Positions 25,928 through 40,001 of a stretch of 64,000 nt of DNA are shown here, one piece after another. The stretch comes from Candidatus Omnitrophota bacterium. GTDB lineage: Bacteria > Omnitrophota > Gorgyraeia > Gygaellales > Profunditerraquicolaceae. Location: NCBI GenBank assembly GCA_043809145.1, contig JAZDED010000034.1:6423-70422 (forward strand). The letters run 5' to 3'. The position numbers and the translations under genes were made by a program. The first letter of the stretch is position 1. Each line of letters begins with the position of its first letter. The notes beneath the pieces were generated by a model that was not told the DNA's origin, did no database searches, and saw only the letters and a program-made list of their open reading frames with translations.

Positions 25928-26009
25928 ATATTCCTTTTTAAGGGACTGTTCTTAAATCAAAGCGGAGCAGTCCCCGATTGAGTTGAGAACCGTCACTTAT
26001 TTTAACGAA

Positions 26010-30767: not shown

Positions 30768-31514
30768 CTAAATATAACAAATCTGCGGCAATCTTCTCTT
30801 ATGCTCAGACCTCTTAACCATTGCTTTGACTTTTTTCACTTTATATAAAGGAAGAATCTGCCTTACCTTTTTCTCCAAAGCCATAAGGATATCATCTAAC
30901 TCCGGATAAGTTATCCCCATCTCACCTTCATCAGTCTGGTCCGGCCATAGCCCGGCAGTAGGAGCTTTTGACATAATCGGTTCAGGAACATTCAAGGCCC
31001 AGGCTAATTGCCTGACCTGGCTCTTTAAAAGACTTCCTATAGGCAAGATATCCACGCCTGCGTCCCCATATTTAGTAGAATAACCCACCATAATCTCGGA
31101 TTTATTTCCTGTGCCGCAAACCAGGTAATTCAGGTTATTGGCAAAATAATACAGAGTCATCATTCTTAAACGTGGTTTCAGATTAGCCTGGCTTAAGCGG
31201 TTTCCTTTCGGAAAAAGGCCCATTAAAGTATCATAGGCCTTAGATAAATCTATGGTTTTAGTCTTTATTCCGAACCTTTTGGCAGTTAATTTAGCATCGA
31301 TCATATCCTGCTTCTGGCTGTGGCATGGTAAGATTAAAGCCAAAACCTTATTCTTTCCCACTGCCTCTTTAGCCAAAGCTAGAATCACAGCAGAATCAAT
31401 GCCGCCAGAAAGGCCTAAAATAATGCCTTTGGCGCCGCTTAATCTAACCTGCTTCTTAATCCAATTTACAATCTTTTTCTTCATGTAACACCCATCAGGC
31501 AACGCTGTTGCCAT
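30768..31514 (-). CDS. nadE: NH3-dependent NAD+ synthetase.
   Basis: PP-loop GLSGGIDSAV. The true start may be the internal Met at 31484 (MKKKIVNWIKK). Confidence 0.8.
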   Translation of the reverse strand: MATALPDGCYMKKKIVNWIKKQVRLSGAKGIILGLSGGIDSAVILALAKEAVGKNKVLALILPCHSQKQDMIDAKLTAKRFGIKTKTIDLSKAYDTLMGLFPKGNRLSQANLKPRLRMMTLYYFANNLNYLVCGTGNKSEIMVGYSTKYGDAGVDILPIGSLLKSQVRQLAWALNVPEPIMSKAPTAGLWPDQTDEGEMGITYPELDDILMALEKKVRQILPLYKVKKVKAMVKRSEHKRRLPQICYI

Positions 31515-31714
31515 TTAGTGACATCCACCAAGCCGGTGTTTCTCTAACTTAAGACTCAGATGGCGAAGGTGAAGAATAGTATATACTACGATTAGTTTAT
31601 AAATTATATACCACTAAATAGATAGGGTCAAGGAGATATTGAGAGGTCCAAAGCTGCACTCAAATCCAGCCCAAGCCCCCGCTTATAACCTTTAAATCGC
31701 TCTAGAAGACAAGG

Positions 31715-31924
31715 TTAAAAACTAGAAACAAGTCCTAGTTTTAGCAAGACTTTCTTTAGAGCATCCAAATCACTTTTAATCAATTCAATATTGGCCATTT
31801 TGACGTTGGGCATTAATGTTGGATTTTGCTCGCAAAGACGATTCTCATTTTCTAATGCTTTAATGCGATAACGCAATACCTTTCTGGATAACTCTTGTGT
31901 GCTCTTTTTAGTCTTCTTTTTCAT
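31715..31924 (-). CDS. Small basic hypothetical protein (69 aa); may not be real.
   Basis: ORF only. Confidence 0.2.
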   Translation of the reverse strand: MKKKTKKSTQELSRKVLRYRIKALENENRLCEQNPTLMPNVKMANIELIKSDLDALKKVLLKLGLVSSF

Positions 31925-32207
31925 TTAAGCCTGGGCAATCTTATGTAGGACCTCGTAGATAAAGGCCTGATAATTTATCCCCATCTTGGGCGCTTCCTCC
32001 TTTCTACTTTCAATAGACGCAGAAAGGAACAGTATCTAATGGAAATATTTGGTGATTTTGGGATTTGGCGCGTCGCTCAAAACACGCCTCGCCAAGGGCA
32101 TCTATTAGATTAGGTTTGAAATTAAAATTTGTTCGGCAGGATATCAGTAGGAGAAAAAATAGAAACGTCCCCTATTTTCCTATATATAGGTCACGGTTAA
32201 TTGGAAT

Positions 32208-32236
32208 TTGACAACTATGATTTTGTAATGTATACT
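32208..32236 (+). promoter_or_regulatory. Near-consensus sigma70 promoter TTGACA-17-TATACT for cassette 1.
   Basis: Read directly. Followed by the GGAGGG Shine-Dalgarno and the ATG at 32259. About 125 nt here are roughly 90% identical to 33342-33465. Confidence 0.55.
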
Positions 32237-32258
32237 TATGTGAATAGTGGAGGGATAT

Positions 32259-32600
32259 ATGGACTGGAAAGAAAATAAGGTTATAGCTATTGGGGCAGGG
32301 GCAGTATTGGTGCTATGTATCATTATGATTGTTATTATCTTACAGCCTAAGAAAACATTGGTAATGCTTATGTCAGATTCAAACCAAGAAATTTTTACTG
32401 GGAAAGTTCCCAATGGCGCTAAGTTTCCTTTGCTTAATCCTAAAACTAAAATGATGGATTTGTATCCTGCTTCAAAGGTAAAATGCGAAAAATGCGGTTG
32501 GGAGGGATACGTGATTACTTTCAAAAAACCGGGCGAACCAGTTGACCCCAGATGTCCTAATTGTAGAGCTCAAACAATATACCTTAGATCTATTAAGTAA
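32259..32600 (+). CDS. Small membrane-anchored zinc-ribbon protein, copy 1 (N-terminal TM, C-terminal CxxC...CPxC).
   Basis: MDWKENKVIAIGAGAVLVLCIIMIVIIL... then ...KCEKCGWEGY...RCPNCRAQ. Paralog of 33437-33835. Confidence 0.6.
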   Translation: MDWKENKVIAIGAGAVLVLCIIMIVIILQPKKTLVMLMSDSNQEIFTGKVPNGAKFPLLNPKTKMMDLYPASKVKCEKCGWEGYVITFKKPGEPVDPRCPNCRAQTIYLRSIK

Positions 32601-32636
32601 TAATTATCTTATGGGGCTTTAAGTAGAGAGGGCCTT

Positions 32637-33104
32637 ATGCTAAGAGATAAAAAAGTCAATACAGGCTTTACGCTGGTTGAAATTATGGTTGTAGTAGCAA
32701 TAATTGGTATTCTTACTGCTACCATAACACCTCAGGTGAGCGGTCTTGTGGATAAAGCTCGTAAGGCCAAAGCCCAGGCAGATGTAAACTCTATTACTGT
32801 CGGAATATTGGCATATGTAGACGATAATACCGGAACGTATCCCGGAGGCAATATCCGTATTGCCCAGGATGGGCAGTGGCTTAATACATATCTGATGGCA
32901 ACTGGAGCAGCAAAAAGGTATTTGCAGAAGAGAATTGAAAATGACCCCTGGAATTTAGCTTACCGTTTTTTTAGCTGCAGCAATTATGCCACTGGCCATT
33001 CTTTTGTTATGAGCCGCGGACAGGATAAAAGCTGTGGAGGTGGTTCTCCTTACCGCTGGGGTAATGCAGCTGTGGGGGATGATGTTGTTGTCTGGATAAG
33101 ATAA
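32637..33104 (+). CDS. Type IV pilin-like / GspG-like (pseudo)pilin, copy 1.
   Basis: Class III signal peptide with prepilin cleavage/methylation motif ...NTG|FTLVEIMVVVAIIGILTA. GspG-like region AKAQADVNSITVGILAYVDDNTGTYPG. C-terminal GDDVVVW. Confidence 0.8.
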   Translation: MLRDKKVNTGFTLVEIMVVVAIIGILTATITPQVSGLVDKARKAKAQADVNSITVGILAYVDDNTGTYPGGNIRIAQDGQWLNTYLMATGAAKRYLQKRIENDPWNLAYRFFSCSNYATGHSFVMSRGQDKSCGGGSPYRWGNAAVGDDVVVWIR

Positions 33105-33144
33105 ATTTAGAAAACATTTTTTCTAGATTTTATTACATACCAAA

Positions 33145-33180
33145 AGGCTGAAGACAAAATTATTCAGCCTATTTAATTTA
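33145..33180 (+). terminator. Weak intrinsic terminator after pilin copy 1.
   Basis: AGGCTGAA...TTCAGCCT stem followed by ATTTAATTTA. Confidence 0.35.
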
Positions 33181-33385
33181 TATGGTAAAATATAATAAAG
33201 CGATATGACAAATTTCCAGAAAAATAGTTTTATTATTCTAGCCATACTGCTATTAGCGGCAATTAATTCTTATTTTTATACCAGCCGCAGCCATATCTTT
33301 AAGGAAGCTGTTATAGCCCGGGCCCCTTCAGTTGTTAAAGCAGAAACGTCCCCTCTTCCATATATAAATCCCGGTTAATCGAAAT

Positions 33386-33414
33386 TTGACAACTATGATT
33401 ATGTAATGTATACT
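33386..33414 (+). promoter_or_regulatory. Near-consensus sigma70 promoter TTGACA-17-TATACT for cassette 2.
   Basis: Identical boxes and spacing to cassette 1. Confidence 0.55.
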
Positions 33415-33436
33415 TATGTTAATAGTGGAGGGATAT

Positions 33437-33835
33437 ATGGATTGGAAAGAAAATAAGGTTATAGGTCTAATCGCAGGTGTAATCTTAATATTTTCTATTA
33501 TATTGGTCATTATTTTGTTGCAGCCGAAAAAAATAAGAATGGCGTTTATGGCTGAGGGCGCAGATGAAGTTTTCGAGATGAATGTCCCTATAGGCACTCA
33601 AGGCCCAGTTGTTAATCCGAAGACAGGGGCCAGGGTTTTATATCCGGCTACAAAATTAAAATGCCAAAAGTGCGGCTGGGAAGGGTGGTTAATTAACTGG
33701 AGGTCAAGCTCAAAACCTCTCTCGCCTAAAGAGCTGGCAAAATTGTCTGACGAAAAGAAGTCGGCTAAAATAAAGTCCGGCTTACCTACTGTTTGCCCTA
33801 GATGCGGCTCTCCGCAATTAAGCCAGATGAAATAA
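33437..33835 (+). CDS. Small membrane-anchored zinc-ribbon protein, copy 2.
   Basis: MDWKENKVIGLIAGVILIFSIILVIILL... then ...KCQKCGWEGW...VCPRCGSPQ. The first 9 codons are almost nucleotide-identical to copy 1; the remainder is about 45% identical at the amino-acid level. Confidence 0.6.
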   Translation: MDWKENKVIGLIAGVILIFSIILVIILLQPKKIRMAFMAEGADEVFEMNVPIGTQGPVVNPKTGARVLYPATKLKCQKCGWEGWLINWRSSSKPLSPKELAKLSDEKKSAKIKSGLPTVCPRCGSPQLSQMK

Positions 33836-33865
33836 ATCTATTATAACTTCTAGAAGGTGGTTATA

Positions 33866-34351
33866 ATGAAAGACAAAGGCTTTACTCTTGTGGAAGTGAT
33901 GGTTGTGGTGGCGATTATCGGTATTTTGGCTACTACGGTTTTGCCCAACGCAACTAACTTAATCAATAAAGCAAAAATAGCAAAGGCGAATTCAGAGCTG
34001 CAATCCTTAGCAGTTGCTATCCTGGCCTATTACGATGACCGCAATAGCTGGCCAGGCGATATTAGTGGCAACGGCTGGAATGATAGCTGTTATATCGGAC
34101 GGACAGTGCGCGGCGGTTGCGGCTTTGGGAATGTTTGTCTTATGTCTACTACGTATGGCGCTACCAGGTATCTAAATAGAGATATTACTCAATCTCCCTG
34201 GGGTGGCGGCTGCGGGACATACCTCTGGAGATCAAGGCCTGATGGCTGGTTTGCTTTTGTCGCTTGTCTTGGCCCAGATAAGACGCGCCAAACCTGCTTT
34301 ACTACTGTAAGGGCACCAGCCGGTGATGACCTCGTAGTTTATTTAGAATGA
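33866..34351 (+). CDS. Type IV pilin-like / GspG-like (pseudo)pilin, copy 2.
   Basis: MKDKG|FTLVEVMVVVAIIGILATT. AKANSELQSLAVAILAYYDD; C-terminal GDDLVVY; several Cys in the C-terminal half. Confidence 0.8.
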   Translation: MKDKGFTLVEVMVVVAIIGILATTVLPNATNLINKAKIAKANSELQSLAVAILAYYDDRNSWPGDISGNGWNDSCYIGRTVRGGCGFGNVCLMSTTYGATRYLNRDITQSPWGGGCGTYLWRSRPDGWFAFVACLGPDKTRQTCFTTVRAPAGDDLVVYLE

Positions 34352-34357
34352 TTTTAA

Positions 34358-34945
34358 ATGCCTTTGTATTTTTACAAAAATAAATTTTTTTATATAACCG
34401 CAGCAATCTTTCTTATTGTTAGCCTTAATTTATATCGATTATTAAGGAATGAAGGAAAAGTAAATCTCTTTCCGGGCTGGGACAAAACAATAGAAACATC
34501 TGGATTTTTCTTCAAGGCGCCTAATAATTGGCCTCTGGCCGTTATCCGGGGAAATAAAGAAAAAGGAGAAGTTGTTTTTTCTCAGCAATTTCATTTCCAA
34601 AGATACAACTGGTACCTGGTTTTTTCTTGGGATAAGCAAGATTTTAATTGGAAAGAGTTACTACCGCCTTTAAAAAAAGATCCTGGAGTCAAGAGCGAAC
34701 CCGAATATAATTTTGGAGAGATTTATCAGAAAGACATTTTATTCCAAAACAAAACCAGGGGATTTAAGAATATTGTTCTTTGGATTAAACGGTCTTGCGG
34801 TATAGTCGAGCGTAACTGGCTTTTTTTGTTCGAATCTAATAATCTGCCGGGGGAGAAATTTTTTTTTAAAGCCCTATACCTTAGCGATAAAAGTCAGGAA
34901 GAGACATTCCGTCGCATTCTAGCTTCCATAAAATTTAAACGATAA
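34358..34945 (+). CDS. Hypothetical protein with an N-terminal TM anchor.
   Basis: Lies 6 nt after the pilin-2 stop; 195 aa; no recognisable family. Confidence 0.4.
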   Translation: MPLYFYKNKFFYITAAIFLIVSLNLYRLLRNEGKVNLFPGWDKTIETSGFFFKAPNNWPLAVIRGNKEKGEVVFSQQFHFQRYNWYLVFSWDKQDFNWKELLPPLKKDPGVKSEPEYNFGEIYQKDILFQNKTRGFKNIVLWIKRSCGIVERNWLFLFESNNLPGEKFFFKALYLSDKSQEETFRRILASIKFKR

Positions 34946-34948
34946 AAT

Positions 34949-35785
34949 ATGGATATTGTAGTTGAAACCCGGGGATTAGGTAAAAATTTTACAAAAGTTA
35001 TTGCTTTGGCGGATTTAAATTTAACCTTAAAGCAAGGAGAGATCTTCGGGCTCCTGGGGCCAAATGGCTCAGGAAAAACCACTTTGATTAAGATCCTTCT
35101 GGGGGTCCTTTTTCCCACAAAAGGCAGCGTCCGGGTTCTAGGGCAGGACCCCAGGGATATCTCAATAAAATATCGGATCGGATTTTTGCCTGAGACTCCT
35201 CAATATTACCCTTTCTTAAATCCGGTTGAGGTTTTAGATTTCTTTGCCCGGCTTTTTAATATCCCCAAAAAATTAAGGAAAATAAGAATAGAAGAATTAA
35301 TTAATCTGGTCAGCTTATCGGATTATAGAAAGAGGAGATTGGGTGCTTTCTCTAAGGGGATGCTCCAGAGGATGGGCTTAGCCGTAAGCCTGATTAATGA
35401 CCCGGATTTTTTATTATTGGATGAGCCGACTGTAGGTTTAGATCCGCTAGGGGCATTCCAGGTCCGGGATTTATTATTAAAATTAAAGGCCGAAGGAAAA
35501 ACTATTTTGCTTTGCAGCCACTTGCTTTCGGAGGTTGAAAGCGCCTGCGACAAAATCGCTGTTCTTTATAAGGGAGTACTGGTAAAAGAAGGCCGGCTCT
35601 CTGAACTTTTGAAGAAAGATGATGAAATCCAGATTAATATTAAAACTAAAGAACCAGCTATCAGGGATAAAATCTTAGCCTTGATAAAAAACATTGAAGA
35701 AACCGAGGTGGATATCGGTTATCCTAATCAATCCCTGGATGAGTTATTCCGCAGTATAATTAAGGATTCAGAGAATGTTAAATAA
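34949..35785 (+). CDS. ABC transporter ATP-binding protein (ABC-2 / export type).
   Basis: Walker A GPNGSGKTT, signature FSKGMLQR, Walker B LLLDEPTVGLD. Confidence 0.85.
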   Translation: MDIVVETRGLGKNFTKVIALADLNLTLKQGEIFGLLGPNGSGKTTLIKILLGVLFPTKGSVRVLGQDPRDISIKYRIGFLPETPQYYPFLNPVEVLDFFARLFNIPKKLRKIRIEELINLVSLSDYRKRRLGAFSKGMLQRMGLAVSLINDPDFLLLDEPTVGLDPLGAFQVRDLLLKLKAEGKTILLCSHLLSEVESACDKIAVLYKGVLVKEGRLSELLKKDDEIQINIKTKEPAIRDKILALIKNIEETEVDIGYPNQSLDELFRSIIKDSENVK

Positions 35786-36545
35786 GGTTTGGGCAATAAC
35801 CATAAATACTTTTAAAGAGGCAATCCGCCGTAAGATCCTCTATGTGTTTTTATTTTCTGCCATAGGCATTATTTTCGTTGGCCGCTTCTTTAACTTTTTA
35901 TCTCCTTCAAACGAAACAAAAATCGCTATTGATATGGGCCTGGCCGGTATTCTTTTTTTTGGGGCCCTTATCGCAATATTTTCCTGCGGGGAGCTGATTC
36001 CCCGGGAGATAGAAAAGCAGACTATCATTACTCTTTTAAGCAAACCAATAAAAAGGATTGAATTTTTGGCAGGTAAATTTCTGGGCGGTTTTCTTTTGGT
36101 ATTTGTGAATTTTCTTTTAATGTCGATTGTATTCCTGGTGATAATTTATTTCAAGGAAAAAACAGTCTCAATAGACCTGGTTAAAGCGCTTTTGCTTACC
36201 TTCTGGGAGCTAATAGTTTTATCTTCGATTGCCGTATGCCTATCTATCTTAAGCTCAACAGTAGCTTTTAACGTAACCGTTACCTTTTCTATTTATATCC
36301 TTGGCCATCTTACGGATTATTTTGTTCATATCGCTAAGCAAGCAGAATATTCGGTTATTTCCGTGTTGCTTATGGTAATTTATACCATAGTCCCTAATTT
36401 TAACCACTTTAATCTCCGGGATAAAGTTGTAGAAGGTTTCTTCATCTCCAATGCCCAAGTATTTGAGGTTTTTCTGTATGGTTTGGTTTATATCGCGGTT
36501 ATGTTAGGCTTATCTTTCCTTTTCTTTCAAGATAAAGAATTCTGA
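35775..36545 (+). CDS. ABC-2 family transporter permease.
   Basis: Six predicted TM helices; overlaps the ATPase gene by 11 nt. Confidence 0.65.
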   Translation: MLNKVWAITINTFKEAIRRKILYVFLFSAIGIIFVGRFFNFLSPSNETKIAIDMGLAGILFFGALIAIFSCGELIPREIEKQTIITLLSKPIKRIEFLAGKFLGGFLLVFVNFLLMSIVFLVIIYFKEKTVSIDLVKALLLTFWELIVLSSIAVCLSILSSTVAFNVTVTFSIYILGHLTDYFVHIAKQAEYSVISVLLMVIYTIVPNFNHFNLRDKVVEGFFISNAQVFEVFLYGLVYIAVMLGLSFLFFQDKEF

Positions 36546-37246
36546 TGCCTTCAAGAATCATTCGTAAATCATTTTTGACCTTAGCCGTCGTTTTACTTTA
36601 TTTTTCCTTATTTTTTATCTCCCGGAAACTTGTTGCATATAGGGGTTTACCGGAACGTTTACTGATTAAGCCGGGAGAATTTGCGGTATTAGTTGCGTTA
36701 GGCGGATTGAAAGGGGTAGCTGCCGACCTGTTATACCTGAAAGCAGATCAGCTATGGCAGGAAAAGAAATGGAAAGAAATGATCCCCTATTACCGGGCAA
36801 TAACCGTGCTGCAGCCGTATTATATTGATTACTGGTCAATAGCCGGTTTTCACATCGCCTGGAACTTGTCTTTTGCCGCTAAAACTCCGGCAGAAAAAGA
36901 GTCCTATATAAAACAGGGGGTAGATTTTTTAAAAGAAGGGCTTAATTATAACCCTGATGCCTATAAGTTATATTTTGACCTGGCTTTTACCTATGACCAT
37001 AAACTTAAAGATTATGGCCAGGCGGTTGAATGGTATAGGAAGGCGATAAACTTTCCCCATCTGGTATATGTGGAGCGTTTAATCGCCCACTGCCTGCGTA
37101 AGAATGGGGATTTACCAGCTGCTTATCAGGAATGGCAAAAATTAAAAGACCTTTATCTTGATGATGAATACCATCAGGATATTGTTAAGCGTAATCTTAA
37201 ATCCGTAGAAGAGGAAATGATAAAGAGTGGCCAGAAGCCCGAATAA
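36545..37246 (+). CDS. Membrane-anchored TPR-like repeat protein.
   Basis: N-terminal TM, then helical repeats (YYRAITVLQPYY..., AVEWYRKAINF...). Confidence 0.45.
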   Translation: MPSRIIRKSFLTLAVVLLYFSLFFISRKLVAYRGLPERLLIKPGEFAVLVALGGLKGVAADLLYLKADQLWQEKKWKEMIPYYRAITVLQPYYIDYWSIAGFHIAWNLSFAAKTPAEKESYIKQGVDFLKEGLNYNPDAYKLYFDLAFTYDHKLKDYGQAVEWYRKAINFPHLVYVERLIAHCLRKNGDLPAAYQEWQKLKDLYLDDEYHQDIVKRNLKSVEEEMIKSGQKPE

Positions 37247-37748
37247 AAAAATATATTTAATAGTTTTATTATTATCATTAACAGTGGCTATAGTTTTCTA
37301 CCCGGGAGGTAAATTGGCTAAAAAAGTAGATTTGGGCGAGGGAATAACCGTAAGTGTCCCGGGGAATTTCCCAAAGCACACCTTAAAGCAGGAAAGTGAT
37401 TTAAGGATTACCTCATTTAATATTCAGCCTCACGAAAAATCACTGAGGTTTATTAACTTTCTTGAGTTTATCGTTTCGGCAGATAAGCTGGATTGCCTAA
37501 AAAGGCTGCCTAAAGAAGGCTATGAAATCGGTAACACCAACGAAGAAAAACTTTTAATAAATAGCCAGAGCGTTATTTTAAAAACCATAGAACTGAAAAT
37601 TACCCATCCCTGCGGCTCAAAGGAAAAAGGTTTAATTTACGCCTTGGAATATTTTTGCCAACCTAAAGACAAATATATTTATCTTCTTACCTTTACTATG
37701 ACTAAAAATGGATTTTTGGATATCGCTAAAACTCTGAAATGTTATTAG
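37227..37748 (+). CDS. Hypothetical exported/anchored protein.
   Basis: N-terminal hydrophobic segment; no family recognised. Confidence 0.35.
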   Translation: MARSPNKKIYLIVLLLSLTVAIVFYPGGKLAKKVDLGEGITVSVPGNFPKHTLKQESDLRITSFNIQPHEKSLRFINFLEFIVSADKLDCLKRLPKEGYEIGNTNEEKLLINSQSVILKTIELKITHPCGSKEKGLIYALEYFCQPKDKYIYLLTFTMTKNGFLDIAKTLKCY

Positions 37749-38314
37749 AGAAGATCAGCACTGCATTGATTTTGGGTCTATCCGCCGAGAGGATTCTACT
37801 TTGCCCTTTTATGGCGATGGGCCTTTCGCTTTCTGACCGTGGGGGAGGCTTAAAATTTATTTTAGGCAGGTTAGCGGGAATCAGCCTTTTAGGCTTGTTT
37901 ATATCCATAATTGGCGTTCCTTTTAATATCCCTCCCTATATATTAGACGGAGTCTTTGGTTTGTTTCTTTTGGGGCTGGGGGTAAACGCGTTATTAAAAT
38001 CAAAACACCAACTTAAGCAGAAGAAATTTTCTAACGCCGGATTTAGTTTGGGTTTATTCAGAGGTATGCTTAATCCCGGAAGAAAGCTTGTTTATCTTTT
38101 ACCGCTTTTATGGGGGATAAGAGTTGTTGACGGCCTGGCGGTTTCGCTGGCCTACGGTTTAAGTTCTTCGGTATATCTTCTTCTGGGATTCTTTTCTGCT
38201 GAGCTCTTAAATAGGGTTTCGGCTTATCAAAAACAGATAAAATTAGCCGGGGCAATAATATTATTATTTTTAGGGGGGTTTTATATTTTTAAGTTCTTTC
38301 AAGGAAGATTATAA
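37739..38314 (+). CDS. Polytopic membrane protein (about 6 TM), unknown family; candidate metal/cofactor transporter.
   Basis: Hydrophobic throughout, with CPFMAMG in the first TM helix. Confidence 0.4.
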   Translation: MLLEKISTALILGLSAERILLCPFMAMGLSLSDRGGGLKFILGRLAGISLLGLFISIIGVPFNIPPYILDGVFGLFLLGLGVNALLKSKHQLKQKKFSNAGFSLGLFRGMLNPGRKLVYLLPLLWGIRVVDGLAVSLAYGLSSSVYLLLGFFSAELLNRVSAYQKQIKLAGAIILLFLGGFYIFKFFQGRL

Positions 38315-38315
38315 G

Positions 38316-39155
38316 ATGAAACTGCGAATATCCAAGCATCCATGTTTTGACGAAAAGGCCCATTTGAAATTTGCCCGCATCCATCTACCGGTTGCCAAAT
38401 TTTGCAATATCGGCTGCAAATATTGCATCCGGCTGTTAAATAAAACCGAAAACCGCCCCGGCATAGCTTCCCGGATACTTTCACCAAGACAGGCCTTGAA
38501 TAAAGTAAGAAGGATTATTAAATCTTATCCTTTGACTGTAGTCGGGATCGCCGGGCCCGGGGATCCCTTGGCCAATGATGAGACCTTTCAGGTGCTTGAA
38601 TTGATCAAAAAAGAATTTCCTAAGCTTATGAAATGTTTGAGCACTAATGGGTTACTGCTTTTGGATTATACGGATTTATTAAAGAAGTTAAATCTGGCAA
38701 CTCTTACGGTTACGGTTAATGCTGTTTTGCCGAAAACCGCCACCAGGATTTATGATTTTGTCGTCTGGGGCGGTAAAAAGTATTGCGGTATCCAGGGAGC
38801 AGAGATTTTATTAGCCAGGCAGCAGGCAGGAATTAAAGAAGCAGTAAAGCAGGGCATTGCTGTTAAAATAAATACAGTGCTTATCCCTGAGGTCAATAAA
38901 AAAGAAATACCCGCGATAGCTAAAATTTATGGTTCTTTAGGCGCCAAGATGATGAATATTATTCCTCTTATCCCGATTTATAGGATGGCTTCCTGCAAGG
39001 CGCCGGATTGTAATGAATTAAAGGATATAAGAAGCAAGGCTGAGAAATATATTTCGCAATTTAGGCTCTGCAAACAGTGCCGGGCCGATGCCGTAGGGAT
39101 ACCGGGGCTGCAGAGAAAAGATTTCTCCAGCCCTTCCGAATACTTCCACTTTTGA
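38316..39155 (+). CDS. NifB-like radical-SAM protein (minimal NifB core, no NifX-like extension).
   Basis: HPCFDEKAHLKFARIHLPVAKFCNIGCKYCIR...GIAGPGDPLAND...KCLSTNG...CKQCRADAVGIPG. This aligns motif for motif with the NifB radical-SAM domain (HPC, H, Cx3Cx2C, GIAGPGDPLAN, CLSTNG, CxxCRADAxG) as I recall it. Confidence 0.7.
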   Translation: MKLRISKHPCFDEKAHLKFARIHLPVAKFCNIGCKYCIRLLNKTENRPGIASRILSPRQALNKVRRIIKSYPLTVVGIAGPGDPLANDETFQVLELIKKEFPKLMKCLSTNGLLLLDYTDLLKKLNLATLTVTVNAVLPKTATRIYDFVVWGGKKYCGIQGAEILLARQQAGIKEAVKQGIAVKINTVLIPEVNKKEIPAIAKIYGSLGAKMMNIIPLIPIYRMASCKAPDCNELKDIRSKAEKYISQFRLCKQCRADAVGIPGLQRKDFSSPSEYFHF

Positions 39156-39248
39156 GAAAGTGAAACTAGGGCAAAGCGGAGATTTTATTAGAGATATCTA
39201 AATATATATGAAGATAGCGGTAGCTTCTAGGAATTAAGGGGACGGTTC

Positions 39249-39758
39249 TTAAACCCTGCGGAAACCTATCGGCTTTTTGACAGGTAGCGGCGCAGGTTCC
39301 AGAAGTTGTTTTATGGCCTGGAAAACAATGGCAAACTGCCGGTCGTATTTTTTCTCCATCGCCTCAATTTTTCGCCTGAGGCCTGTATTGGTTAGCAACA
39401 TCCGGCGCAACTGAGTAAACGCGCGCATTATTTGAATATTGACCGCAATTGCCCGATTGCTATTTAAAACCCCAGAAAGCATAGCCACACCTTGTTCAGT
39501 AAATGCTAATGGCAAGTGAGGTGAAAATTTCAGGAATTTAAGGTGGTCGCAATTTGCGACCACCTCTTCTTTCTCTTTGGCAGTCAATTGAAACATAAAG
39601 TCTTCTGGAAATCTCTTTTTATTTCTCTTTACCTGCTCATTTAATCTTTTTGTCTGTACCCCATACAACAAAGCCAAATCACTATCTAGCATAACCTTCT
39701 TACCCCTGATAATAAAGATCTTTGTGGCGATTACTTCTATAGGAACTAATTCAGACAT
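39249..39758 (-). CDS. ORF6N-domain protein (phage/antirepressor-associated DNA-binding domain).
   Basis: IRGKKVMLDSDLALLYGVQTKRLNEQVKRNKKRFPEDFMFQLT matches the ORF6N consensus. Confidence 0.65.
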   Translation of the reverse strand: MSELVPIEVIATKIFIIRGKKVMLDSDLALLYGVQTKRLNEQVKRNKKRFPEDFMFQLTAKEKEEVVANCDHLKFLKFSPHLPLAFTEQGVAMLSGVLNSNRAIAVNIQIMRAFTQLRRMLLTNTGLRRKIEAMEKKYDRQFAIVFQAIKQLLEPAPLPVKKPIGFRRV

Positions 39759-39826: not shown

Positions 39827-39866
39827 ATAAAAAAGAACGGTTCTGCCTTTACTTTCAGAACCGTCC
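39827..39866 (-). terminator. Hairpin plus T-run on the minus strand (greA terminator or motif-family hairpin).
   Basis: ACGGTTCTG...CAGAACCGT 9-bp stem preceded on the plus strand by AAAAAAG. The stem is built from the AGAACCGTCCC-type motif. Confidence 0.4.
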
Positions 39867-40001
39867 CTATATTTACTATCCTCTGGACAGGGCTCGGCAA
39901 AAACAATAAATAGAAACGTCCCCTAGCTTGCTTGACAGGACCCGCTAAATACTAAGCCTTTGGGACAGACCCCAAATACAGGGGTCAGTCCCGCAGGCTA
40001 G

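What the first reader, a model, noticed from the sequence alone, without database searches (positions are those of the whole stretch)
32150..34351. Tandem duplicated cassette [promoter - TM zinc-ribbon protein - GspG-like pseudopilin] whose promoter and 5' end are far better conserved than its coding sequence
The two cassettes share about 125 nt at roughly 90% identity (32161-32285 vs 33342-33465). That stretch covers the AGAAACGTCCCCT motif, a TTGACA-17-TATACT promoter, the GGAGGG ribosome-binding site and the first 8-9 codons (MDWKENKVI). Beyond it, the zinc-ribbon proteins are only about 45% identical and the pilins have diverged substantially. Such a sharp identity boundary suggests either strong selection on a shared regulatory/leader element or recurrent 5' gene conversion, in the manner of pilin-cassette variation. 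I do not recognise the pairing of a small TM-anchored C4 zinc-ribbon protein with each pseudopilin as a described pilus or T2SS component. The opposite-strand shadow ORFs (32180..32524 and 33328..33597) share peptide because of this duplication and are not genes.
Basis: seen in the sequence. Interest (0 to 1): 0.8.

Follow-up and report, generated by a model that had tools for sequence, protein, structure and literature searches.

The report
Paired zinc-ribbon/pilin cassettes with homogenised 5' ends
An uncultured Omnitrophota bacterium carries two old, diverged copies of a gene pair (a small membrane zinc-ribbon protein plus a type IV pilin) whose promoter and first nine codons were recently made almost identical by recombination. 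The zinc-ribbon protein belongs to an undescribed family that sits directly upstream of a pilin gene in every relative examined.

Summary
The two cassettes (32161-33104 and 33342-34351) share a block of 79/83 identical bases (32205-32287 vs 33383-33465). It covers a TTGACA-17-TATACT promoter, the ribosome-binding site and codons 1-9. Identity drops to 54% in the next 100 nt, and dS between the two zinc-ribbon genes (ZnR) is about 2.

The cassettes are ancient paralogues. Each has its own orthologue in other Omnitrophota metagenome contigs, where cassettes abut without a promoter between them inside a type IV pilus cluster.

The 5' block is therefore young. Gene conversion or segmental copying explains it best; selection alone does not (37/40 weakly constrained positions identical). 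Relatives show the same within-genome homogenisation of ZnR 5' ends, and ZnR2 looks chimeric.

The ZnR family is tiny (18 clusters among 1.84 billion representative proteins) and has no Pfam, NCBIfam or literature description. Its orthologues are under purifying selection. A ZnR gene lies directly upstream of a pilin gene in 14 other independent loci. Its fold is a transmembrane helix plus a generic zinc-ribbon beta domain.

Its role as a pilin-specific accessory protein is inferred, not shown. A 13-nt motif that heads both cassettes recurs at other intergenic sites and near the synteny breakpoints, and remains unexplained.

The parts
32161..32173 (+). 13-nt motif AGAAACGTCCCCT, copy 1; left edge of the similarity between the cassettes
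   Evidence: Exact copies at 32161, 33342 and 39912, and a 1-mismatch copy at 39237(-). Related copies at 39858, 23737 and 25941-25996. Function unknown.
32208..32236 (+). Sigma-70-like promoter P1 (TTGACA-17-TATACT)
   Evidence: 11/12 consensus match; identical hexamers and a 16/17 identical spacer in P2. A TATACT -10-like element also lies upstream of the first ZnR gene in L008 and L020. Not tested experimentally.
32249..32254 (+). Ribosome-binding site GGAGGG for ZnR1
   Evidence: Sequence; identical in cassette 2.
32259..32600 (+). ZnR1: 113-aa protein with N-terminal MDWKENK, one TM helix and a C-terminal CxxC...CPxC zinc-ribbon domain (b-type)
   Evidence: Called as a gene in NCBI. No Pfam or NCBIfam family above threshold. 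AF2 pLDDT 90.5, helix 7-28 plus a beta domain. Family of 18 clusters. Closest orthologues are the L004/L006 a/b-type ZnR proteins.
32637..33104 (+). Pilin1: 155-aa type IV pilin-like protein, leader MLRDKKVNTG|FTLVE (b-type)
   Evidence: Pfam N_methyl 31.0 bits (cut-off 21.2) and T2SSG 31.9 bits (cut-off 21). Globular part 58% identical to the L004 b-type pilin and 36% to pilin2.
33100..33170 (+). Two hairpins after pilin1; the second (33145-33170) is followed by a U-rich tract, so it is terminator-like
   Evidence: RNA fold -21.6 kcal/mol, z = -5.3, 0/200 shuffles as stable. The simple terminator scan did not list it.
33205..33378 (+). 57-aa ORF, possibly a decayed remnant of the 5' end of the conserved 190-aa gene that follows pilins in this family
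   Evidence: Aligns colinearly (residues 1-45 to 1-45, 31% identity) with the L005 191-aa protein. Scores 12.3 bits against an HMM of the family's N-termini, with 0/2000 shuffles reaching that, but one unrelated window ORF scores 13.2. Suggestive only.
33342..33354 (+). 13-nt motif AGAAACGTCCCCT, copy 2
33386..33414 (+). Sigma-70-like promoter P2, a near-identical copy of P1
33437..33835 (+). ZnR2: 132-aa paralogue. Its C-terminal third carries the c-type 21-aa linker; its middle resembles a/b-type proteins (chimera-like)
   Evidence: Residues 61-88 match a/b types at 17-18/28 and c types at 12-13/28. Residues 89-132 carry the c-type insertion. The soluble part is only 38-40% identical to c-type ZnR proteins, although pilin2 is 66-70% identical to c-type pilins.
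33866..34351 (+). Pilin2: 161-aa type IV pilin-like protein, leader MKDKG|FTLVE (c-type)
   Evidence: Pfam N_methyl 36.1 bits (cut-off 21.2). 64-70% identical to pilins of L004, L020 and L021. AF2 model poor (pLDDT 42).
34358..34945 (+). 195-aa TM protein, a conserved downstream neighbour; starts 6 nt after pilin2, so probably co-transcribed from P2
   Evidence: Orthologues follow the last pilin in L004, L005, L006, L008, L020 and L021. No Pfam family.

Best explanation
The region holds two ancient paralogous copies (b-type and c-type) of a two-gene module. Each copy encodes a small bitopic zinc-ribbon membrane protein (ZnR) followed by its cognate type IV pilin.

In related Omnitrophota the modules lie back to back, without promoters between them. 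They sit directly after the pilus assembly ATPase, inside a cluster that also encodes a secretin, a T2SSF platform protein and PilM. In this genome the modules have been detached from that cluster.

A non-reciprocal recombination event (gene conversion or segmental copying) then gave both modules the same 5' block. The core of the block is about 83 nt, and the wider homologous stretch is about 125 nt. It carries the sigma-70-type promoter, the ribosome-binding site and the first nine codons.

The consequences are as follows. Cassette 1 is its own transcription unit, ending in a hairpin. Cassette 2 reads through into the downstream 195-aa/ABC-transporter genes. Both start from near-identical promoters with identical ribosome-binding sites, so the two divergent pilins are probably co-expressed.

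Homogenisation of ZnR 5' ends recurs in the family. The N-terminal tail and TM helix are kept alike within a genome, while the soluble domain diverges together with its pilin.

Inferred function: ZnR is a pilin-dedicated membrane accessory (chaperone or adaptor). Its common N-terminal/TM part would meet a shared partner, either the pilus machine or the conserved pilin alpha1-N helix. Its variable zinc-ribbon domain would be specific for the cognate pilin.

Shown here: the anatomy, the age difference between the 5' block and the rest, the orthology, the conserved pairing, and purifying selection. Inferred: the conversion mechanism and its direction, promoter activity, zinc binding, membrane topology, and the accessory function (about 0.35 on its own).
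For: - Sharp boundary: 79/83 identical, then 54/100. Best 80-column window 77/80, against a permutation maximum of 63.
- Weakly constrained positions are 37/40 identical, P about 2e-7.
- dS between ZnR1 and ZnR2 is about 2.0. Identical codons at identical residues: 6/7 in the first nine codons, against 14/40 and 22/56 elsewhere.
- The cassettes are old. Pilin1 is 58% identical to the L004 b-type pilin and pilin2 is 70% identical to the L004 c-type pilin, but the two are only 36% identical to each other. L004 and L006 carry a-b-c and a-c arrays with 12-34 nt between genes.
- Concerted 5' evolution in relatives. L004 Zb and Zc share 55/60 of their first 60 nt and 88% aa identity in the N segment, against 33% in the C segment. 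The orthologues L004 Zc and L008 Z share 32/60 nt, 39% in the N segment and 59% in the C segment.
- ZnR2 looks chimeric.
- A ZnR gene lies directly upstream of a pilin in all loci examined.
- ZnR and pilin divergences correlate (Mantel r = 0.77, 0/5000 permutations).
- Orthologue dN/dS is 0.14-0.30.
- The full cluster context is visible in L020 and L006.
- The AF2 model is confident (pLDDT 90.5).
- Cys-to-His and Cys-to-Asp replacements at ligand positions fit metal binding.
- The 5' leader has no RNA structure and there is no Rfam match.
Against: - No expression data exist; the promoter is a consensus match only.
- No closer relative or population data were available to catch a conversion event directly. 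The public assemblies are more than 99.9% identical.
- The 13-nt motif is 13/13 identical while the 30 nt after it are only about 75% identical. This points to selection on at least part of the block.
- The origin of the 332-nt spacer between the cassettes is unresolved. The a-b-c colinearity across genomes argues for a tight ancestral array, whereas the possible remnant ORF argues for a duplication unit that included the downstream gene.
- The correlation between ZnR and pilin divergence could reflect linkage alone.
- ZnR topology is ambiguous (41 K/R in the N flanks against 60 in the C flanks across 20 members).
Confidence: 0.55

Rival explanations
1. Purifying selection alone. The block is a dense regulatory and leader element (promoter, operator, translation-initiation region, conserved N-terminal peptide), and both ancient copies have kept it unchanged.
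For: The N-terminal motif M-x-W-K/R-x-N-K is conserved across the whole family. The 13-nt motif is exact in both copies and recurs elsewhere in the window. A TATACT -10-like element lies upstream of the first ZnR gene in L008 and L020.
Against: 37/40 weakly constrained positions are identical (P about 2e-7, or 6e-4 even at a 70% background). The most constrained coding segments reach only 56/80. Upstream regions of relatives are otherwise unalignable. The leader has no structure and no Rfam match. Across lineages the ZnR 5' ends differ (32/60) while they are alike within genomes.
Confidence: 0.12
2. Recent tandem duplication of the whole cassette, followed by very fast diversifying selection on the ZnR and pilin coding sequence that left only the promoter and 5' end unchanged.
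For: The unit spacing of 1178-1181 nt, with the same motif at the start of both units and a motif-like ATAGAAACATC at 34486, fits a microhomology-bounded tandem unit. The 57-aa ORF may be a copy of the 5' end of the downstream gene. L005 shows that recent ZnR duplicates can evolve at dN/dS of about 0.95.
Against: Each cassette has its own orthologues in other lineages that are much closer than the in-genome paralogue (58-70% against 36%). Synonymous sites are saturated (dS about 2). The putative remnant has no nucleotide similarity to the 195-aa gene.
Confidence: 0.05
3. Capture of an alternative pilin allele. Cassette 1 (with its promoter and a piece of the downstream gene) was integrated from another strain or lineage next to the resident cassette. 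The shared 5' block is then the conserved flank used for recombination, not a later conversion.
For: Lineages carry b only (L005), c only (L008, L020, L021) or several types (L004, L006). The possible remnant ORF resembles the L005 (b-only lineage) 191-aa protein more than it resembles the window's own 195-aa protein. The locus has been rearranged relative to relatives.
Against: A donor close enough to share a 95% identical promoter should also share a recognisable 5' end of the downstream gene, yet the remnant has no nucleotide similarity. The a-b-c order is colinear across genomes, which suggests vertical inheritance with losses. The gradient of identity (95% core, about 75-80% flanks) fits nested conversion tracts better.
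Confidence: 0.15
4. The 5' block, or at least its motif-bearing edge, belongs to a short mobile or recombinogenic repeat (REP-like element or recombinase site, possibly with an outward promoter) that was inserted upstream of both ZnR genes.
For: AGAAMCGTCCCCT-type motifs occur only in intergenic DNA: 23737, 25941-25996, 32161, 33342, 39237(-), 39858 and 39912. There were 11 matches against 4.0 +/- 1.8 expected. Copies lie within about 100 nt of both synteny breakpoints of the conserved block and flank the ORF6N gene in inverted orientation.
Against: Only the 13-nt motif is shared with the other copies; the promoter part has exactly two copies in 64 kb. No transposase, recombinase or target-site duplication was seen. 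The similarity continues 27 nt into the coding sequence. No matches in the loci of relatives or in genome contigs.
Confidence: 0.1

Closest known systems
Pseudomonas aeruginosa pilA allele groups with cognate accessory genes (tfpO/pilO, tfpW, tfpX, tfpY, tfpZ); recalled from my own knowledge, not tested here
   Same: A major pilin gene next to the assembly ATPase gene is paired with a small accessory gene. The accessory gene co-varies with the pilin type and differs between lineages.
   Different: Here the accessory gene is upstream of the pilin, encodes a TM plus zinc-ribbon protein with no similarity to the Tfp proteins, can occur in 1-3 tandem modules in one genome, and has its 5' end homogenised between modules.
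Neisseria pilE/pilS gene-conversion system (pilin antigenic variation); recalled from my own knowledge
   Same: Non-reciprocal recombination between pilin-locus cassettes produces mosaic genes.
   Different: In Neisseria, variable 3' segments move from silent, promoter-less pilS copies into one expressed pilE. Here the conserved promoter and 5' end are what is shared, both cassettes are complete and carry promoters, and the converted gene is the accessory ZnR gene rather than the pilin.
GspG major pseudopilin / type IVa major pilins
   Same: Class III signal sequence (G|FTLVE), a hydrophobic alpha1-N helix, and Pfam N_methyl and T2SSG matches. Position directly after a T2SSE/PilB-type ATPase in relatives.
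   Different: Scores are below the GspG equivalog cut-off (65.4 and 51.2 against 88.85). The cluster carries PilM and T2SSF but no recognised GspC/L/M. No known T2SS or T4P has a ZnR partner.
Generic zinc ribbons (rubredoxin-like knuckles: MCM N-terminal domain, RPB12/RpoP, eS27)
   Different: Those proteins are soluble nucleic-acid- or protein-binding modules. ZnR is membrane-anchored by an N-terminal TM helix, has a second, often degenerate ribbon, and carries a conserved W-K/R-x-N-K tail.

Membership tests
Type IV pilin / pseudopilin (class III signal peptide proteins) | Short basic leader ending in Gly, then F/M at +1 and Glu at +5, followed by about 20 hydrophobic residues | tested here: met
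   MLRDKKVNTG|FTLVEIMVVVAIIGIL and MKDKG|FTLVEVMVVVAIIGIL. Pfam N_methyl 31.0 and 36.1 bits against a cut-off of 21.2. TIGR02532 28.0 and 34.4 bits against 16.3.
Type IV pilin / pseudopilin (class III signal peptide proteins) | Long alpha1 helix packed on a C-terminal beta sheet (pilin fold) | tested here: inconclusive
   The AF2 model of pilin2 shows helix 8-59, but its mean pLDDT is 42 and the globular part is not modelled.
GspG (T2SS major pseudopilin, TIGR01710 equivalog) | Score above the curated equivalog cut-off | tested here: not met
   65.4 and 51.2 bits against a cut-off of 88.85. Pfam T2SSG passes for pilin1 (31.9 against 21) but not for pilin2 (12.6).
Type IV filament gene cluster | Neighbouring assembly ATPase, platform protein and secretin | tested here: not met
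   None are present in the 64-kb window. In the relatives L006 and L020 the orthologous cassettes lie between T2SSE and T2SSF/PilM, with a secretin upstream. Membership in such a system is therefore inferred by orthology.
Zinc-ribbon domain | Two CxxC-type knuckles on beta hairpins forming a tetrahedral metal site | tested here: inconclusive
Neisseria-type pilin antigenic-variation system | One expressed pilin locus plus silent promoter-less partial cassettes that donate variable 3' segments | tested here: not met
   Both cassettes are full-length with promoter and RBS. The shared tract is the 5' end and promoter of the ZnR gene, not the variable pilin regions. There are no further pilin fragments in the window.
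Sigma-70-type promoter | -35 and -10 hexamers with 17 +/- 1 spacing upstream of the gene; a transcription start | tested here: inconclusive
   11/12 consensus match in both copies. The start site cannot be tested with these tools.
Cis-regulatory RNA (riboswitch or leader) | Conserved structure in the 5' UTR | tested here: not met
   No Rfam match at E <= 1. Folding z-scores are 0.07 and -0.68. The predicted UTR is only about 15 nt.

The most novel reading that the evidence does not exclude
ZnR proteins are a previously undescribed, Omnitrophota-restricted class of pilin-specific accessory factors built as modular adaptors. Recurrent gene conversion keeps the N-terminal tail and TM helix uniform within each genome so that they fit the shared pilus machine. 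The zinc-ribbon domain co-diversifies with, and is specific for, the pilin encoded next to it. This arrangement would let one machine handle interchangeable pilin modules, each equipped with the same promoter.
Probability: 0.3. Interest if true: 0.65.

Novelty: new variant of a known kind. Interest (0 to 1): 0.5.

Why it matters
Type IV pili are thought to be central to the attachment and predatory or parasitic lifestyles proposed for ultra-small Omnitrophota (PMC10066038). However, pilin handling has only been studied in cultured model bacteria.

A conserved, obligatorily paired membrane zinc-ribbon partner for a subclass of pilins would be a new component of type IV filament biology. It gives a concrete target for interaction and assembly experiments.

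The mosaic pattern (5' ends grouping by genome, 3' ends grouping by orthologue) is a clean natural example of partial concerted evolution. It can be used to infer which part of the protein meets a shared partner and which part meets a specific one.

The practical reach is limited. The family is small, confined to uncultured organisms, and its function is inferred from gene context only.

Tried and rejected
- Rfam scan of 31000-35500 at E <= 1: no match.
- Folding of the 5' leaders: no structure beyond shuffles. The riboswitch or leader-RNA idea was dropped.
- Pfam, NCBIfam and PADLOC scans of the ZnR proteins: nothing above threshold.
- Profile search of solved-structure sequences: only generic C2H2 or zinc-ribbon pattern hits.
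- The search for homologous proteins with ZnR1 alone found only ZnR1 itself. With the family profile it found only unnamed hypothetical proteins.
- The genome-contig scans by protein pattern and by promoter DNA found nothing.
- The AF2 model of pilin2 was too poor to use.
- Literature searches for a zinc-ribbon pilin accessory protein or for Omnitrophota pilin cassettes found no description.
- Comparison of the three public assemblies for informative polymorphisms: they are more than 99.9% identical and have no differences in the 5' blocks.
- Nucleotide search for the origin of the 332-nt inter-cassette spacer: apart from the promoter copy, nothing was found.
- A defence-system reading of the cassette was rejected.
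Full report
SOURCE AND ANATOMY

The window matches contig JBDRJE010000072.1 of a Candidatus Omnitrophota MAG (GCA_043815385.1). A second MAG and a Logan assembly carry the same locus at more than 99.9% identity.

On the + strand the region reads as follows:
- motif AGAAACGTCCCCT (32161)
- TTGACA-17-TATACT promoter (32208-32236)
- GGAGGG ribosome-binding site
- ZnR1 (32259-32600, 113 aa)
- pilin1 (32637-33104, 155 aa)
- two hairpins (33100-33170; z = -5.3)
- a 57-aa ORF (33205-33378)
- the motif again (33342)
- the same promoter (33386-33414) and RBS
- ZnR2 (33437-33835, 132 aa)
- pilin2 (33866-34351, 161 aa)
- 6 nt later, a 195-aa membrane protein, followed by ABC-transporter genes.

Both pilins have a canonical class III signal sequence (G|FTLVE) and pass Pfam N_methyl. 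Pilin1 also passes T2SSG. Neither reaches the GspG equivalog cut-off.

CHECK OF THE OBSERVATION

The shared stretch is about 90% identical over about 125 nt. Within it lies a core of 79/83 identical bases (32205-32287). Identity then falls to 54/100.

The best 80-column window of the cassette alignment has 77 matches. No window in 10,000 column permutations exceeded 63. The next-best real window, the KCxKCGWEG region, has 56.

The ZnR proteins are 46% identical and the pilins 42%. The opposite-strand ORFs are shadows of the ZnR genes and are not annotated as genes.

THE CASSETTES ARE OLD; THE 5' BLOCK IS YOUNG

dS between ZnR1 and ZnR2 is about 2.0. Where the two proteins share a residue, only 14/40 (ZnR) and 22/56 (pilin) codons are identical outside the block, against 6/7 in the first nine codons.

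Metagenome contigs of related Omnitrophota contain orthologues of each cassette. L004 has three modules (a, b, c), L006 has a and c, L005 has b only, and L008, L020 and L021 have c only.

The globular part of pilin1 is 58% identical to the L004 b pilin. Pilin2 is 66-70% identical to c pilins. The two window pilins are only 36% identical to each other. The modules therefore diverged before these lineages split.

In L004 and L006 the modules abut, with 12-34 nt between genes and no promoter. The 332-nt spacer with a second promoter is specific to this lineage.

Within the block, positions that should be weakly constrained are 37/40 identical. These are the promoter spacer, the -10-to-RBS stretch, the RBS-ATG spacer and synonymous third positions. 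The probability is about 2e-7 at a 55% background. The leader has no RNA structure and no Rfam match. Selection alone is therefore an unlikely explanation, and a recent non-reciprocal copy is the best one.

THE SAME PROCESS IN RELATIVES

In L004, the anciently diverged Zb and Zc genes share 55 of their first 60 nt, and identity then drops to about 55%. The orthologues L004 Zc and L008 Z share only 32/60.

At protein level the N segment (residues 1-32) groups by genome, while the rest groups by orthologue:
- L004 Zb vs Zc: 88% in the N segment, 33% in the rest.

Window ZnR2 looks chimeric. Residues 61-88 match a/b-type proteins (17-18/28, against 12-13/28 for c types). The C-terminal third carries the c-type 21-aa linker. 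Its soluble part is only 38-40% identical to c-type ZnR proteins, although its pilin is a well-conserved c type. This fits an older, longer 5' conversion tract.

Identity around the core also forms tiers: 95% in the core, about 75-80% in the flanks, and about 55% in the remainder.

WHAT THE ZnR PROTEIN IS

An exhaustive profile search of 1.84 billion representative proteins found 18 clusters at E <= 0.001. None has a name or a Pfam domain.

The family shares these features:
- an N-terminal M-x-W-K/R-x-N-K tail
- one TM helix
- a PKK-like motif
- one or two zinc-ribbon knuckle pairs.

The first ribbon is degenerate in many members, including both window proteins. Some members replace ligand cysteines with His or Asp, as expected for a metal site.

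Orthologue dN/dS is 0.14-0.30, so these are real genes. Topology is ambiguous by the positive-inside rule.

CONSERVED PAIRING AND CONTEXT

In the 14 other independent loci examined (20 cassettes including the window's two), a ZnR gene, or two in tandem (L005, L013, L018/L019), lies directly upstream of a G|FTLxE pilin. These loci include members only 25-30% identical to ZnR1. There were no exceptions where the downstream DNA could be read.

Other pilins in the same clusters (four in L006) have no ZnR partner.

L020 shows the whole cluster in this order: secretin, a 201-aa protein, T2SSE ATPase, ZnR, pilin, a 191-aa protein, ABC ATPase, ABC-2 permease, TPR protein, two further proteins, radical SAM, two further proteins, a pilin, a 135-aa protein, T2SSF, PilM.

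The window contains only the middle part (32259-39155). No pilus machinery lies elsewhere in its 64 kb, so the locus has been detached from its ATPase operon. This explains the need for its own promoter.

ZnR and pilin divergences correlate (Mantel r = 0.77). This is compatible with co-evolution but also with simple linkage.

INTERPRETATION

I read the locus as two ancient ZnR-pilin modules whose 5' control region and first codons were recently homogenised by gene conversion. This would place both divergent pilins under near-identical promoters with identical ribosome-binding sites. Cassette 1 would terminate at the hairpins, and cassette 2 would read on into the downstream genes.

I infer that ZnR is a pilin-dedicated membrane accessory protein. 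The part kept uniform within a genome (tail and TM helix) would contact something shared. The part that diverges with the pilin would confer specificity. This is an inference from gene order, co-divergence and architecture. Nothing here tests it directly.

UNRESOLVED POINTS

(i) The origin of the 332-nt spacer. The 57-aa ORF aligns colinearly with the N-terminus of the L005 191-aa protein. It scores 12.3 bits against the family's N-terminal HMM, with 0/2000 shuffles reaching that score, but one unrelated ORF scores 13.2. A motif-like ATAGAAACATC sits at the corresponding place in the 195-aa gene (34486). Together these suggest an old tandem unit that was bounded by microhomology and included the 5' end of the downstream gene. 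That conflicts with the tight a-b-c arrays of relatives.

(ii) The 13-nt motif. It is exact at 32161, 33342 and 39912, and has one mismatch at 39237(-). Relatives of the motif lie at 39858, 23737 and 25941-25996. All copies are intergenic. They lie near both synteny breakpoints of the conserved block and flank an ORF6N gene in inverted orientation. The motif could be an operator, a REP-like element or a recombination site. I could not decide between these.

LITERATURE

The Omnitrophota surveys report widespread type IVa pilus genes but do not mention a zinc-ribbon partner or pilin cassettes (PMC10066038; bioRxiv 10.64898/2026.06.07.730766). Text searches for a zinc-ribbon pilin accessory protein found nothing. 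The comparisons with the P. aeruginosa tfp accessory genes and with Neisseria pilE/pilS rest on my own knowledge.

VERDICT

It is a new variant of known themes (a pilin with a cognate accessory gene, and partial concerted evolution of paralogues). It involves an undescribed protein family. Interest is moderate.

Noticed in passing
window 23737, 25941-25996, 32161, 33342, 39237(-), 39858, 39912: A short intergenic motif AGAAMCGTCCC(C)T recurs: 11 matches to GAAMCGTCCC with <=1 mismatch, against 4.0 +/- 1.8 expected. The clear copies (<=2 mismatches to the 13-mer) are all intergenic. Copies lie within about 100 nt of both ends of the block that is syntenic with relatives (32161 and 39237, in inverted orientation), and three copies surround the ORF6N gene. 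It could be an operator, a REP-like repeat or a recombination site.
   Followed up: partly
window 39249-39758 (-): A 169-aa ORF6N-domain protein (Pfam 1.8e-31) strongly matches the PADLOC candidate defence family PDC-S05 (4.8e-61). It sits where relatives continue with pilus genes after the radical-SAM gene, so it looks like an insertion at the synteny break.
   Followed up: partly
window 34358-39155; L020 5003-9789; L006 8842-13580: A conserved block is embedded inside the type IV pilus cluster of relatives, between the pilins and T2SSF/PilM. It comprises a 190-aa TM protein, an ABC ATPase, an ABC-2 permease, a TPR protein, two small membrane proteins and a radical-SAM enzyme. An ABC pair also follows the ZnR-pilin pair in the distant locus L012. 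A functional link to the pilus is unknown.
   Followed up: partly
L005 2676-5533: In this relative a transposase-like HTH protein (436 aa) and a 135-aa ORF are inserted between the PilB-type ATPase and the ZnR genes. Two tandem ZnR copies there differ at dN/dS of about 0.95, which indicates relaxed or diversifying selection after a recent duplication.
   Followed up: partly
L013 926-2297; L018 1377-2506 with L019: Tandem ZnR-ZnR-pilin arrangements occur in two further distant lineages. The upstream copy in L018 (164 aa) has four CxxC pairs and lacks the W-K-x-N-K tail.
   Followed up: no
window 22922, 29764, 29773, 38966: The window differs from the NCBI record JBDRJE010000072.1 at four single bases, three of which are shared with the second MAG. 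None lies in the cassettes.
   Followed up: no
window 39961-39991: A strong 12-bp-stem hairpin (GGGACAGACCCC...GGGGTCAGTCCC) lies just downstream of the greA gene end, between greA and the ORF6N gene. It is possibly a terminator without a U tract.
   Followed up: no
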